From Bacillota bacterium (GTDB taxonomy: Bacteria; Bacillota; DTU025), in contig JBMNJT010000002.1 of NCBI GenBank assembly GCA_050951805.1, positions 928,001-992,000 on the forward strand: a stretch of 64,000 nucleotides of DNA. Reading direction: 5' to 3'. The notes below the pieces were generated by a model. That model was not told the origin of the DNA, made no database searches, and worked only from the letters and a program-made list of their open reading frames with translations. The first letter of the stretch is position 1. Every line of letters begins with the position of its first letter. Shown piece after piece: positions 1,868 to 43,312 of the stretch. Both the position numbers and the translations under genes were made by a program.

Positions 1868-2064
1868 TAGTTGTAACTCCTTTCTCTGATAAACCTGGTT
1901 TGGAAGGGGGCGATCTTCCAGACTAACGATGTATTCGTCAAAGAAAGGGGAATTTCCCGTTGGGAAGTGATGGGAAAAGCGACTTGGTGCGACATTGACA
2001 ATGTTGCATTTCAGTGAAATAGTTGGCGTACAGCCACTTTCATGGACAAAGGATGGTGCTGGAA

Positions 2065-2883
2065 ATGGCGTACAAGGCGCCTGCGGAAATAGCGAAGACT
2101 GTTGTCGACTCTTCAGTGACCAAAGCGAACGCAGATTTTGTAACCCTGGTGGCGCTGGGATTTCTTGCTGGAAGTTTCATAGCGATAGCTGGGGCGACAT
2201 CCCATACTGTCTCTTTGGCTCTCGGGCCCTGGGCCGGACCGGGAATAATTCGCTTCATATCAGGCCTCATATTCACAGTTGGGATAACAATGGTCATAAT
2301 AGGTGGAGCTGAACTTTTCACCGGGAACTCGCTGATGGTTGCAGGGCTTTTGGAAGGGCGCATTACCATTGTTCAACTCCTCCGAAACTGGGTCCTAGTC
2401 TACCTGAGCAATTTCGTTGGCGCCCTCTTTGTTGCATGGCTCTATTACAAGACAGAACTTTGGGCTGCTCCGGGACTGGAAATCGCCGAAGGCTTTGTTA
2501 ACACAGCCATAGCAAAGGCCAACATTGAATTTGGAACGGGGTTTGCAAGGGGAATCCTATGCAATTGGCTGGTATGTATGGGTGTTTGGATGTCCTATGC
2601 TGCTGACGATGTGACCGGCAGAGTCATACCAACGGCGATGGCAGTTGCCGCTTTCGTGATGTGTGGCGCTGAGCATTCGGTGGCGAACATGTTCTACATG
2701 CCGGTAGGTTTCATGATTCGCGCGCGTATCAGTGGATTGCCTGCCCTCTCCATGTTGCCAAATCTGGTTTCTGTGACATTGGGGAACGTAGTGGGAGGAG
2801 GCTTATTGGTTGCGACTGTGTACTGGGTTGCATACCTTCGTAAGAGCTCATCGCCTAAACGTGTAAGCCCTGGCCGGAACTGA
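2065..2883 (+). CDS. Formate/nitrite transporter (FNT family)
   Basis: GAELFTGN, GILCNWLVC, EHSVANM and GNVVGG motifs; hydrophobic. Confidence 0.9.
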   Translation: MAYKAPAEIAKTVVDSSVTKANADFVTLVALGFLAGSFIAIAGATSHTVSLALGPWAGPGIIRFISGLIFTVGITMVIIGGAELFTGNSLMVAGLLEGRITIVQLLRNWVLVYLSNFVGALFVAWLYYKTELWAAPGLEIAEGFVNTAIAKANIEFGTGFARGILCNWLVCMGVWMSYAADDVTGRVIPTAMAVAAFVMCGAEHSVANMFYMPVGFMIRARISGLPALSMLPNLVSVTLGNVVGGGLLVATVYWVAYLRKSSSPKRVSPGRN

Positions 2884-2890
2884 GGCAATG

Positions 2891-2927
2891 AGACGGCGTC
2901 CGGCCAGAGCGACCGGGCGCCGTCTTT
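2891..2927 (+). terminator. Intrinsic terminator of the FNT gene; target site of the group II intron
   Basis: AGACGGCGTCCGG/CCGGGCGCCGTCT stem (one G-U) ending in TTT, directly abutting the intron 5' end. Confidence 0.75.
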
Positions 2928-3792
2928 GTTCGCCCGGCATGTTTGTTGAGCCGATGGACTGAAAGAAGTCCTGTCACCTAACCAGCGGGAAGACAACCCC
3001 AAGGCAAGGGCGTCGCTGGTAACGGCGGGGTCTGAAGGAAGCTTTAAGGGGGAACACGGAACGTAGCGAAAGCGAACCGAAGTTGGCCTGTCAGGTGGGT
3101 AACCTTGCGAAGTATGGGAAAGCCCGAAAGCTGGATAACCTGGGGGGTTTTGACGGACGGGTTCGTGTTCAGGCAGACAAACTTAACCGGGGAAGCCCTG
3201 CATCATCCAGATAGCTGGTAAGCCCAAACAAGCGGAGACGCAAGGATGGGAATATGTGGTGTGGGGTGGCAGATGAGTCCGTAGTAGTTATGAACCCTCA
3301 GCCCATGAAAGCTGGCAACAGACCGGAGGATAAAACTGAGGGGACAGCGGCCGGGAGCTGCTGGGCTGCATAGGCCAAAAGCCTGTGCAGTTGCGAAGGG
3401 ACGAAGGCAAACCAAAGCGTGCAACCTAGTTACAGGCAAGCATGGGAGAGAGATAACAGAGGCTGAAATGCCGATGGGAACGGGGGAGCCGGGGGCGACG
3501 AGTCTGCTGGTCCCTGCGCCCGCTCAGCAGAGTATCAAAGTTTCGCGGGGTAGATTGCCTTAGAGCTAGAGACGCCTCGCAGGCCTTGGGAAGAAACTGC
3601 AACCATGCAAGCTTGATGGCCAAGGAAGCACGGCGAGATGAATTGACCTCACGAAGTATGAGGTCGGCGTCTTGCATCTCTTCTATGAAGCGAAGTGACT
3701 AAGGTTTGCCAGGAGCCGTGTACGGGGCCCGTACGCACGGTTCTGTGAGAGGGATGACGCCAGGCTGATTACCTGGCGCCACCCTACTCGAT
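2928..3792 (+). mobile_element. ORF-less group II intron, IIC-like
   Basis: 5' GTTCGCCCGGCATG; DI motif GCAAGGGCGTC...GTCTGAAGGAAGC; DI/DII junction CTTAACCGGGGAAGCCCTG; DV GAGCCGTGTACGGGGCCCGTACGCACGGTTC (3713-3743); DVI with bulged A3786; 3' end CTACTCGAT; no RT ORF. Confidence 0.88.
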
Positions 3793-3820
3793 ACGTGCCG
3801 GCGCTTGCGTGGGCAAGCTT

Positions 3821-4156
3821 TTATGATTTCGGCACGTTAAGGTTTGTCTGAGTCGTGTAGGTTGATGTGGGTTCTGTTGGGAAGGTGCCAGAAACTTGGG
3901 GCCTCAGAGCCTGTGCGAAACTGGCCTGAGTGCCGGCGACGGTTTGACTAATGAGGCTCTGCTCCGCCGCTGCGATCATGTGCTTAACCATCTGGCCGCC
4001 GATCCTTCCGGCCTCGCGGGCGGGAATGTCTCCGAGATACCCGCCATAAGCGTTATAATCGACCCCCACCTGACTGGCTATCTCATATTTCATCTGGTCA
4101 AGAGCCTGACGAGCCTGTGGGTTGAGAATCCTATTGCTTCTGCTCTGTCTCGCCAT
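3821..4156 (-). CDS. Alpha/beta-type small acid-soluble spore protein with C-terminal extension
   Basis: ALDQMKYEIASQVG...REAGRIGGQMVKHMIAAAEQ core followed by about 45 extra residues. Confidence 0.88.
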   Translation of the reverse strand: MARQSRSNRILNPQARQALDQMKYEIASQVGVDYNAYGGYLGDIPAREAGRIGGQMVKHMIAAAEQSLISQTVAGTQASFAQALRPQVSGTFPTEPTSTYTTQTNLNVPKS

Positions 4157-4207
4157 AAAATACTTCTCCCTTCTCACGCGTATTCTTGCTGCATGCGACT
4201 GCGTTTC

Positions 4208-4236
4208 TAGTGTGACCGTCGTTGTCGAACGTATAC
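4208..4236 (-). promoter_or_regulatory. SigG/SigF-type forespore promoter for the SASP gene
   Basis: Minus strand GTATA-N14-GGTCACACTA (17 nt to CACACTA). Confidence 0.6.
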
Positions 4237-4426
4237 TAGAACTTTACGTCACATGAGGAACTCACATTTTGCTCGAGCGAAGTTGGCGAGCGGAGAGAAT
4301 AAGATCCAGAATGCGGGCAACCATTCTACAGCAAGAACGGCTTGTATCAATGTGATGCCTACGCTACTAGAAACCTATTTTGTTCCAACTAAGCTCTAGG
4401 GTGGGCATCCTGCTGTCTTTGAAAAA

Positions 4427-43235: not shown

Positions 43236-43312
43236 CGGGGCGTAGCTCAGTTTGGTAGAGCGCATGGTTTGGGACCATGATGTCGCAGGTTCAAATCCTG
43301 TCGCCCCGACCA
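43236..43312 (+). tRNA. tRNA-Pro (TGG)
   Basis: CGGGGCG/CGCCCCG acceptor stem, CATGG-TTTGGGA-CCATG anticodon arm, TTCAAAT T-loop, encoded CCA. Confidence 0.96.

What the first reader, a model, noticed from the sequence alone, without database searches (positions are those of the whole stretch)
2928..3792. Intact ORF-less IIC-like group II intron behind a terminator (HYER-type ribozyme candidate)
Seen: 5' GTTCG, IIC-type domain I motifs, a short domain V with AC bulge, domain VI with bulged A3786, an AT end, and about 350 nt of domain IV with no RT ORF or YADD. It sits 2 nt after the FNT terminator stem. The putative EBS1 loop GAAG (3109-3112) can pair with the 5' exon end CTTT. Known: IIC introns target terminator hairpins with a short EBS1, and some ORF-less IIC introns (HYERs) cleave DNA without protein. 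Inference: this is a still-functional non-autonomous ribozyme, either mobilised in trans or acting as a standalone nuclease. The ORF track does not show it.
Basis: partly seen in the sequence, partly recalled or inferred. Interest (0 to 1): 0.8.

Follow-up and report, generated by a model that had tools for sequence, protein, structure and literature searches.

The report
ORF-deleted group IIC intron copy
This is a real, structurally intact self-splicing group II intron that has lost its reverse-transcriptase gene and most likely spreads by borrowing the enzyme from three intact sister introns in the same genome. This is a known kind of parasitic element, not a new one.

Summary
Window 2928-3792 (+) is an 865-nt group II intron. 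Rfam models match above their cut-offs: domain I at 3013-3182 and domains V-VI at 3711-3792. Two congeneric genomes carry the precise empty site.

The intron is a deletion derivative. Three identical 2092-nt parents in the same genome encode a 424-aa RT/maturase whose closest solved relatives are group IIC enzymes. The window copy equals a parent minus 1227 nt (Shine-Dalgarno sequence, start codon and all but the last 18 codons), plus one substitution.

Five copies share exactly this junction. Other ORF-less lineages in the genome have nearby but distinguishable junctions, so one deletion followed by copying is the simplest account.

Fourteen of 15 family insertion sites follow unusually stable hairpins. 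The proposed EBS1 (GAAG, 3109-3112) pairs with the exon ends and covaries with them in relatives.

Best reading: a non-autonomous delta-ORF IIC intron mobilised in trans. It resembles a natural version of the targetron donor design.

The HYER (protein-free nuclease) idea is neither needed nor testable here, because cognate RT genes are present. No spliced-exon contig was seen in public RNA runs.

Verdict: a new member of a known kind, of modest interest.

The parts
2023..2883 (+). Upstream gene: formate/nitrite transporter, same strand as the intron (context)
   Evidence: Pfam PF01226, 231.8 bits; ORF list
2890..2926 (+). GC-rich stem-loop after the FNT gene; the DNA/RNA hairpin that the intron targeted
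   Evidence: MFE -27.8 kcal/mol, z -4.52, 0 of 200 shuffles fold as well. 0 of 2998 random genome positions have as stable an upstream 45-mer. Conserved in the empty sites of G001 and G002. Not called a terminator by the scan because only 3 T follow.
2924..2927 (+). IBS1 (CTTT), last 4 nt of the 5' exon
   Evidence: Pairs 4 of 4 (one G-U) with GAAG at 3109-3112. Read from the flanks; covariation in relatives.
2928..3792 (+). The 865-nt delta-ORF group IIC intron
   Evidence: Rfam hits; 5 copies with the same ends; empty site in congeners
2933..3191 (+). Domain I (intron 6-264)
   Evidence: MFE. Consensus fold of 8 sequences keeps the closing and internal helices; 36 of 124 predicted pairs show a compensatory change. 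RF02001 matches 3013-3182.
3109..3112 (+). EBS1 (GAAG) in a domain I hairpin loop
   Evidence: Same alignment columns hold AUAA in G040 (exon ends TTAT, 4/4 Watson-Crick), GCGA in a relic at C2:1021817 (exon ends TTGT, 4/4 with 2 G-U) and GAAA in G022 (exon ends TCTC, 3/4)
3195..3267 (+). Domain II (intron 268-340)
   Evidence: MFE; consensus fold
3277..3402 (+). Domain III (intron 350-475), larger than usual; boundaries are tentative
   Evidence: MFE; partly kept in the consensus fold
3406..3710 (+). Domain IV remnant (intron 479-783): a 237-nt leader shared with the parents, the deletion junction, then the last 56 nt of the RT ORF and the closing strand
   Evidence: MFE closing helix 479-486/776-783; alignment to the parents
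3545..3580 (+). Conserved domain IV hairpin (7-bp stem, 22-nt loop). Candidate RT-binding site (inferred, not shown).
   Evidence: Most loop positions are invariant in 6 of 6 aligned sequences, including 3 decayed relics and the 78-81% identical G022 parent. The fold alone is not better than shuffles (z -0.04).
3642..3643 (+). Deletion junction: parent positions 716-1942 (1227 nt) are missing between these two bases
   Evidence: Prefix and suffix comparison shows 1 nt of microhomology. All 5 ORF-less copies have the same gap. Public contigs branch into the parent ORF exactly here (loose ends at 3642).
3643..3698 (+). Remnant of the RT ORF: last 18 codons plus the TGA stop
   Evidence: Parent ORF 724-1998 translated; alignment
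3712..3744 (+). Domain V: AGC triad at its 5' end, 2-nt AC bulge, short 3-nt loop
   Evidence: RF00029 alignment; fold
3747..3789 (+). Domain VI with bulged A3786 (candidate branch point)
   Evidence: RF00029 alignment; fold
3803..3828 (+). Terminator-like hairpin plus T-run just downstream of the intron (context)
   Evidence: Terminator scan; fold of 3793-3840, z -3.41
3821..4177 (-). Convergent downstream gene: alpha/beta-type small acid-soluble spore protein (context)
   Evidence: Pfam PF00269, 82.8 bits

Best explanation
Window 2928-3792 is a non-autonomous, ORF-deleted copy of a bacterial class C (IIC) group II intron.

One deletion removed 1227 nt of domain IV from a 2092-nt autonomous intron. 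The lost stretch held the Shine-Dalgarno sequence, the start codon and 406 of 424 RT codons. All ribozyme domains, the long domain IV leader and its conserved hairpin were left untouched.

Proposed mechanism:
1. The RNA is transcribed by read-through of the hairpin after the FNT gene.
2. It is spliced with the help of the 424-aa RT/maturase made by the three intact sister introns.
3. The resulting RNP reverse-splices into DNA just after a stable hairpin, where 2-4 exon bases (consensus xTTY) pair with EBS1 (GAAG).
4. The borrowed RT copies the RNA into DNA.

Shown here: the anatomy, the copy census, the target-site pattern, the EBS1-IBS1 covariation and the recency of the insertion. Inferred: transcription, splicing, RT binding and the in-trans step.
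For: 1. Real intron. Two Rfam models match above cut-off. A consensus fold has compensatory changes in 36 of 124 pairs.

2. Copies in the genome. There are 5 copies of 865 nt at 98-100% identity, on three contigs. There are 3 parents of 2092 nt and 2 shorter ORF-bearing copies.

3. Shared deletion. All 5 ORF-less copies lack exactly parent positions 716-1942. The window copy differs from parent P1 by one substitution, and copy B by none.

4. Independent deletions look different. The ORF-less lineages F, G and the C8 relic have junctions offset by 1 to about 15 nt. Five identical junctions therefore point to one event.

5. An RT is available in trans. Three 424-aa ORFs are 100% identical to each other and carry YADD. 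They match TIGR04416 at 428 bits, plus RVT_1 and GIIM.

6. IIC behaviour. For 14 of 15 family insertion sites, the fold energy of the upstream 45-mer is in the lowest 5% of 2998 random positions. Exon position -1 is a pyrimidine in 12 of 12 sites and -2 is T in 10 of 12. EBS1 covaries with the exon end in G040, in G022 and in a relic.

7. Recent, precise insertion. The site is empty in both congeners G001 and G002. No other of the 40 relatives searched holds the contiguous 865-nt form.

8. The junction is not an assembly artefact. It appears in 2 public metagenome contigs. A contig from an RNA library also covers it, with 29 nt on its shorter side, just under the 31-nt bridging rule.

9. Literature. 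Bacterial ORF-less introns nearly always sit in genomes with related IEPs that may act in trans (PMC4424553, passages). Engineered delta-ORF introns with the RT supplied separately retrohome efficiently (PMC3898094, passages).
Against: There is no direct evidence of transcription, splicing or mobility.

- The contigs of 3 RNA runs and 1 DNA run show no exon-exon joint (2927 to 3793). Contigs can miss rare forms, so this is weak.
- No single-base difference separates the ORF-less copies from the parents. Their single origin therefore rests on the junction alone.
- Differences shared in a patchwork between ORF-less and ORF-bearing copies (parent positions 223/224, 445, 458, 2070) show that copies exchange sequence. 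The deletion allele could therefore in principle have spread by recombination.
- Two sites fit EBS1 poorly: B (CGAT, 2/4) and P5 (GGAT, 1/4).
- Which part of domain IV binds the RT is not known for this family.
Confidence: 0.8

Rival explanations
1. The deletion allele spread among pre-existing full-length copies by homologous recombination or gene conversion, or the same deletion recurred. The ORF-less RNA itself was never mobilised.
For: - Copies share single-base differences in a mosaic pattern.
- ORF loss is clearly recurrent in this family, with endpoints clustered at the Shine-Dalgarno sequence and at the hairpin before the ORF end.
- One metagenome contig (L049) shows the same junction at the site that holds the ORF-bearing copy P5 in this genome.
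Against: - Independent deletions in the family differ by 1 to about 15 nt, while the five are identical with only 1 nt of microhomology.
- L049 is visibly chimeric at its 3' end, where it runs into rRNA-like sequence.
- No full-length occupant of sites A-E was seen in this genome or in the public contigs laid.
- Copy B sits at the 3' end of another intron and copy D inside an old intron fragment, which look like fresh insertions.
Confidence: 0.1
2. The element is a HYER-type ribozyme. Its biological role would be protein-free, sequence-guided hydrolysis of DNA or RNA, and it would propagate or act without an RT.
For: - It is an ORF-less class IIC ribozyme in several copies per genome. From recall of the abstract (the paper is not held), that is how HYERs were first picked out.
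- HYERs are described as IIC introns lacking an ORF that hydrolyse ssDNA (PMC11754743 and PMC12990946, passages).
- IIC introns generally splice by hydrolysis in vitro (PMC4748821, start of abstract in the search listing).
Against: - Three intact cognate RT genes are present, so no protein-free route is needed.
- The element is 865 nt, against 0.4-0.6 kb stated for ORF-less introns and 637 nt for HYER1.
- Only a 4-nt EBS1 is supported here, against the 6-nt target recognition site described for HYERs.
- Nothing in the sequence separates a nuclease role from ordinary intron chemistry.
Confidence: 0.06
3. It is a dead relic: an intron fragment that can no longer splice or move.
For: The genome does hold decayed ORF-less relics. 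Examples are the C8 relic with a lost domain V triad and the copies at C2:1021817 and C2:860874 with large deletions. No spliced product was seen.
Against: - The ribozyme parts differ from the parents by 0-1 substitution. The parents are themselves present as three identical copies.
- Domains I, V and VI score above the Rfam cut-offs, unlike the relics.
- Five copies share the junction, and the site is empty in congeners.
Confidence: 0.04

Closest known systems
Bacterial class C (IIC) group II introns that insert after intrinsic terminators (B.h.I1, GsI-IIC, O.i.I1)
   Same: - The parent's RT is closest to the GsI-IIC RT (6ar1, 347.7 bits) and the E. rectale IIC RT (7uim, 296.1 bits).
- The RT has no endonuclease domain.
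- Insertion occurs just after stable hairpins, with a 3-4 nt IBS1. This fits the descriptions in PMC3898094 and PMC4424553 (passages).
   Different: - This copy has no ORF.
- The ribozyme without domain IV is about 560 nt, with enlarged domains II-III. Domain IV carries a 237-nt leader before the ORF.
- The 5' end is GTTCG rather than the usual GUGYG. The consensus is recalled, not taken from a call.
ORF-less bacterial group II introns living beside related ORF-bearing copies (reviewed in PMC4424553)
   Same: The pattern matches: an ORF-less copy, closely related introns with an intact IEP in the same genome, and a remnant of the IEP gene left inside.
   Different: The ORF-less form outnumbers the intact parents here (5 to 3). 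The family also shows at least four separate ORF-loss events with clustered endpoints.
Targetron donor design (I-deltaORF intron with the RT expressed separately)
   Same: The ORF is removed from domain IV, the ribozyme is kept, and the RT is supplied from another locus (PMC3898094, passages).
   Different: This one is natural, not engineered. It is class IIC, whereas targetrons use IIA or IIB. The RT comes from sister introns elsewhere in the chromosome.
HYERs (hydrolytic endonucleolytic ribozymes, e.g. HYER1, 637 nt)
   Same: Both are class IIC ribozymes without an ORF that occur in several copies per genome (the selection criterion is recalled).
   Different: Cognate RT genes are present here, the element is longer, and only a 4-nt EBS1 is supported. 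Hydrolytic nuclease activity and dimerisation are untested.

Membership tests
Group II intron | Domain V-VI covariance model match with catalytic-triad helix, 2-nt bulge and bulged branch A | tested here: met
   RF00029 at 48.7 bits against a cut-off of 40. The fold shows the AC bulge and bulged A3786.
Group II intron | Domain I architecture | tested here: met
   RF02001 at 61.7 bits against a cut-off of 32. The consensus fold has compensatory changes in 36 of 124 pairs.
Class C / IIC intron | The IEP belongs to class C and lacks an endonuclease domain | tested here: met
   Tested on the parent's RT, since this copy has none. The best solved relatives are the IIC RTs 6ar1 (347.7 bits) and 7uim (296.1 bits), against IIA LtrA (162.9) and a IIB RT (155.5). 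Only RVT_1 and GIIM domains are found in 424 aa. This rests on nearest neighbours; no tree was built.
Class C / IIC intron | Inserts just after terminator-type or other stem-loops | tested here: met
   14 of 15 sites fall in the lowest 5% of 2998 random positions for upstream fold energy. The exception is copy E, at 10%.
Class C / IIC intron | Short IBS1-EBS1 pairing and no IBS2-EBS2 pairing | tested here: met
   A 4-nt EBS1 is supported by covariation. The 12 exon ends share nothing upstream of position -4 apart from being hairpins. An EBS2 loop was not searched for as such.
Class C / IIC intron | IBS3-EBS3 pairing for the 3' exon | not tested
   The first 3' exon base varies among the copies: A, C, G or T. 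EBS3 was not located.
Non-autonomous intron mobilised in trans | Several copies share one deletion, and an intact cognate RT is in the same genome | tested here: met
   5 of 5 ORF-less copies have the same junction. There are 3 intact identical RT genes.
Non-autonomous intron mobilised in trans | RT-dependent splicing and retrohoming of the ORF-less RNA | not testable with these tools
   This needs a mobility or splicing assay. Public RNA-run contigs gave no spliced joint.
HYER | Class IIC ribozyme lacking an ORF | tested here: met
HYER | System without an intron-encoded protein (as recalled from the original abstract; the paper is not held) | tested here: not met
   Three intact cognate RT genes lie in the same genome.
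HYER | Protein-free hydrolytic cleavage of DNA or RNA guided by a 6-nt target recognition site | not testable with these tools
   Activity needs a bench assay. Only 4 nt of guide pairing is supported here, against the 6 nt described (PMC12990946).

The most novel reading that the evidence does not exclude
Loss of the RT gene in this intron family is not random decay. It would be a recurrent event guided by RNA structure: the RT jumps across the base of the domain IV stem. This would keep producing lean, protein-free IIC ribozymes that parasitise the autonomous copies, much as SINEs parasitise LINEs. These RNAs would also have HYER-type hydrolytic DNA-cutting activity that matters in the cell.
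Probability: 0.1. Interest if true: 0.65.

Novelty: new member of a known kind. Interest (0 to 1): 0.33.

Why it matters
[quoted passage not shown] This genome gives a clean, datable example:
- the parent, the exact deletion and five daughter copies are all in one genome;
- the empty site survives in congeners;
- older independent ORF losses, including a relic shared with a congener, mark earlier events.

This makes it a convenient natural system for three questions:
- How do non-autonomous introns compete with their autonomous parents?
- Which part of domain IV is enough for the RT to act in trans in class IIC?
- Do naturally proliferating ORF-less IIC ribozymes in general have the DNA-cutting activity reported for HYERs?

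It does not change what is known about group II introns.

Tried and rejected
- **Spliced product in public data.** I laid 3 RNA runs and 1 DNA run (contigs only) on 2400-4300. No 2927-to-3793 joint appeared.
- **Joint from 3791 back to 2927.** It appears in 2 RNA runs and in the DNA run. A DNA tandem in this genome (parent P2 directly followed by copy B) explains it, so it is not evidence of intron circles. Depths in these contig sets cannot rank expression.
- **Exact deletion junction elsewhere.** It gave 0 hits in genome contigs (the own genome may be left out). It gave 2 hits in metagenome contigs. One is the copy E site. The other, L049, is chimeric at its 3' end, so I give it little weight.
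- **Does copy E interrupt a gene?** The open frames abut the intron in phase on both sides. However, neither half has a Pfam match. Only the first 61 aa of the upstream frame is conserved in relatives, and the downstream frame was not found in the 3 relatives searched. Left open; probably coincidence.
- **Is copy P5's target a CRISPR array?** Only two 26-nt repeats spaced 66 nt apart were found. None of the 10 ORFs scanned within about 12 kb upstream and 9 kb downstream matched a cas family. I call it only CRISPR-like.
- **HYER paper.** The original Science paper is not held. HYER features come from passages in two later papers and from recall.
- **Which intron class RF02001 stands for.** The paper searched did not say. 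The class call therefore rests on the RT and the target sites, not on the Rfam model name.
- **Earlier notes of this scan.** They held nothing on introns in this genome.
- **Tandem IIC insertions in the literature.** The search returned nothing useful.

Full report
**Observation**

The stretch 2928-3792 (+) lies between a formate/nitrite transporter gene (2023-2883, +; PF01226) and a convergent small acid-soluble spore protein gene (3821-4177, -; PF00269).

A scan of the whole 64-kb window against Rfam at gathering thresholds gave five matches. Three are rRNA or tRNA genes elsewhere in the window. The other two fall in this stretch:
- RF02001 (group-II-D1D4-3) at 3013-3182, 61.7 bits against a cut-off of 32;
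- RF00029 (domains V-VI) at 3711-3792, 48.7 bits against a cut-off of 40.

A laxer scan of 2800-3950 added only a chance-level plastid domain V match.

Domain V folds with a 2-nt AC bulge and a loop 3 nt shorter than the model. Domain VI leaves A3786 bulged, seven bases from the 3' end.

The only + strand ORF of 40 aa or more inside the element is 43 aa. Four ORFs inside or overlapping the element gave no Pfam match.

Small corrections:
- The hairpin at 2890-2926 ends 1-3 nt before the intron.
- The simple terminator scan did not call it, because only three T follow. It called a hairpin just after the intron instead.
- Domain IV is about 305 nt by fold.

**The family in this genome**

The window is C2:928001-992000 of a 2.75-Mb, 8-contig assembly. 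BLAST of the 865 nt against it gives three groups.

Five full-length copies at 98-100% identity:
- A, this one;
- B, at C7:28591-29455, minus strand;
- C, at C2:1101225;
- D, at C4:16381, minus strand;
- E, at C2:464085.

Three 2092-nt copies, which match 1-715 and 715-865 with 1227 extra bases between:
- P1, at C7:21996;
- P2, at C7:29456, minus strand;
- P3, at C2:831218.

Two shorter ORF-bearing copies (P4 and P5), plus truncated, composite and decayed copies.

Across the genome, RF00029 matches 11 places, 10 of them over its cut-off. RF02001 matches 13 places, all over its cut-off.

**What was deleted**

Each of P1-P3 carries the same 424-aa ORF at intron positions 724-1998, with YADD. It matches TIGR04416 (group II RT/maturase) at 428 bits, and also RVT_1 and GIIM.

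A protein search of the genome finds exactly these three at 100% identity, the two shortened versions, and four small fragments.

All five ORF-less copies lack parent positions 716-1942, with 1 nt of microhomology. The deletion starts at the Shine-Dalgarno sequence and ends 56 nt before the stop. It therefore leaves 18 codons plus TGA at 3643-3698.

Outside the deletion, copy A differs from P1 at one base and copy B at none.

**Class**

The parent RT's best solved relatives are the GsI-IIC RT (6ar1, 347.7 bits, full length) and the E. rectale IIC RT (7uim, 296.1 bits). The IIA LtrA scores 162.9 bits and a IIB RT 155.5 bits. There is no endonuclease domain.

Which class RF02001 was built from could not be established. 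The class call therefore rests on the RT and on target-site behaviour. The sequence of domain I resembles the O. iheyensis IIC intron as I recall it, but that is recall, not a test.

**Target sites and exon binding**

I folded the 45 bases upstream of 15 family insertion sites and of 2998 random genome positions. Fourteen of the 15 fall in the lowest 5% of the random set, and 13 in the lowest 2%. Site A is lower than all the random positions. The exception is copy E, at 10%.

The last exon base is a pyrimidine in 12 of 12 sites, and the one before it is T in 10 of 12.

- 4 of 4 pairs at sites A, E, P2 and G;
- 3 of 4 at C, D, P1, P3, P4 and F;
- 2 of 4 at B;
- 1 of 4 at P5.

T-rich tails after hairpins would give some of this by themselves. 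The stronger evidence is covariation in the same alignment columns:
- G040 has AUAA and its exon ends TTAT (4 of 4 Watson-Crick pairs).
- A relic at C2:1021817 has GCGA and its exon ends TTGT (4 of 4, two of them G-U).
- G022 has GAAA and its exon ends TCTC (3 of 4).

This is the behaviour described for IIC introns: short IBS1 and IBS3 plus a DNA hairpin (PMC3898094 and PMC4424553, passages).

**Recency**

In both congeneric genomes searched (G001 and G002), the FNT end and the downstream flank are adjacent. The hairpin is conserved, and the junction region has the same length as the window's two flanks put together, with three substitutions next to the junction.

Among 41 genomes searched (the window's own and 40 relatives), 10 have some match. 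Only the own genome holds the contiguous 865-nt form. A relative in another family (G022) has an ORF-bearing homologue, 78% identical overall and 81% over the first 713 nt. It includes the long domain IV leader, so that leader is an old trait of the lineage.

**Integrity of the ribozyme**

The minimum-free-energy fold gives these domains in intron coordinates:

| Domain | Intron positions |
|---|---|
| I | 6-264 |
| II | 268-340 |
| III | 350-475 |
| IV | 479-783 |
| V | 785-817 |
| VI | 820-862 |

A consensus fold of eight sequences keeps the domain I-III helices. Thirty-six of its 124 pairs show a compensatory change. One distant sequence aligns badly after column 250 and inflates the broken counts.

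Within domain IV, a hairpin at 3545-3580 has a nearly invariant 22-nt loop in all six aligned sequences, decayed relics included. I take it as the likeliest RT-binding site. That is inference, and its fold energy alone is unremarkable.

**Other ORF-less lineages**

The genome also holds ORF-less copies with other junctions:
- F is within 1 nt of the A-E junction, but its 3' part is only about 78% identical and it is cut off at domain V.
- G keeps part of the Shine-Dalgarno sequence and loses more on the 3' side.
- The relic on C8 keeps the whole Shine-Dalgarno sequence.

The C8 relic has the same downstream flank in G002, so it predates the split of the two species.

Two conclusions follow. 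First, ORF loss is recurrent in this family, with endpoints clustered at the two sides of the domain IV stem that encloses the ORF. Second, independent losses can be told apart, which makes one event the best account of the five identical junctions.

**Public data**

The exact junction occurs in two metagenome contigs. One is at copy E's site. The other is at P5's site, but that contig is chimeric.

Contigs of four runs (three RNA, one DNA) laid on 2400-4300 confirm both exon-intron boundaries of site A. One contig from an RNA library runs across the deletion junction with 29 nt on its shorter side, just under the tool's 31-nt bridging rule. Other contigs branch at 3642 into the parent's ORF.

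The contigs show no exon-exon joint. The joint from 3791 back to 2927 is present in DNA as well. The P2-B tandem in this genome explains it.

**How it most likely works, and rivals**

The best reading is a non-autonomous delta-ORF IIC intron that uses the RT/maturase of its three intact sisters for splicing and for reverse-splicing-plus-cDNA insertion after hairpins (confidence 0.8). It is the natural counterpart of the engineered delta-ORF donor with the RT supplied separately (PMC3898094). It also fits the review statement that bacterial ORF-less introns nearly always live with related IEP-encoding introns (PMC4424553).

Rivals:
- Spread of the deletion allele by recombination, or recurrence of the deletion (0.1). 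This is supported by mosaic single-base differences and by the deletion hot spot. It is weakened by the exact identity of the five junctions.
- A HYER-type protein-free nuclease role (0.06). The element fits the operational picture of an ORF-less IIC ribozyme in several copies. However, cognate RTs are present and nothing can be tested here.
- A dead relic (0.04). This is contradicted by near-identity to the active-looking parents.

**Novelty**

This is a new member of a known kind. The modestly unusual points are:
- The deleted form outnumbers the intact parents (5 to 3).
- ORF loss has happened at least four times at nearly the same place.
- Family copies have landed at the 3' end of another intron (B), inside an old intron fragment (D) and after a CRISPR-like repeat (P5, an ORF-bearing copy).

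**Limits**

- The assembly comes from a metagenome (completeness 97%, contamination 2.7%).
- No raw RNA reads were available.
- The original HYER paper and its supplements were not seen.
- Domain boundaries for II-IV rest mainly on energy folds.

Noticed in passing
G000 C7:28591-31547 (minus strand); loci L002/L007: ORF-less copy B starts at the very next base after the 3' end of intact parent P2, forming a head-to-tail tandem. Its 5' exon is therefore the parent's domain VI hairpin plus 14 nt, ending CGAT, which pairs poorly with EBS1 (2 of 4). This tandem explains the 'goes back 865' joint seen in public DNA and RNA contigs.
   Followed up: partly
G000 C4:16381-17245 (minus strand); locus L004: Copy D sits between bases 4 and 5 of the 5' end of an older, diverged intron, of which only about 70 nt remain. 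This is a nested insertion behind the same hairpin.
   Followed up: partly
G000 C4:100981-101072; locus L056:11982-12073: The RT-degenerate copy P5 is inserted after base 26 of the second of two identical palindromic repeats spaced 66 nt apart, which resemble a CRISPR repeat. A third related repeat at C2:15523 is followed by an RT fragment at C2:15589-15705. None of the 10 ORFs scanned within about 12 kb upstream and 9 kb downstream matched a cas family.
   Followed up: partly
G000 C8:451099-451770 (locus L013) and G002:C282 (locus L032): A decayed ORF-less intron follows a tRNA cluster. It has its own deletion junction (Shine-Dalgarno sequence kept) and a mutated domain V triad. It has the same downstream flank in a congeneric genome, so this ORF loss predates the species split.
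   Followed up: partly
G000 C3:143717-145566 and C4:101073-102895 (P4, P5): Two copies share several in-frame deletions inside the RT gene (57, 21 and 24 nt) and lack the start region. This gives 353- and 385-aa frames. They form a second, probably non-autonomous sub-lineage that also exists at two sites.
   Followed up: no
G000 C2:464085-464949 (copy E; locus L005:1501-2365): Copy E is the only copy without a strong upstream hairpin. Open frames of 293 and 169 codons abut it in phase on both sides. There is no Pfam match, and only the first 61 aa of the upstream frame is conserved in relatives, so whether it interrupts a real gene is unresolved.
   Followed up: partly
window 3549-3642: In a public DNA metagenome, contigs covering this 94-nt piece of the domain IV leader have a summed depth about 8 times that of the neighbouring intron parts. 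Some contigs leave the element at 3567 and 3578 into other sequence. The module may be shared with other elements in those communities. Contig depths are crude.
   Followed up: no
G001:C130:18631-18879 (locus L052): This is a roughly 250-nt mini-intron in a congener. It keeps the 5' end, domain II and intact-looking domains V and VI, but lacks most of domain I and all of domains III-IV.
   Followed up: no
window 60674-64000 and 43236-43309: An rRNA operon (16S at 60674-62214; 23S from 62467, running off the window) and a tRNA gene. These are ordinary features.
   Followed up: no
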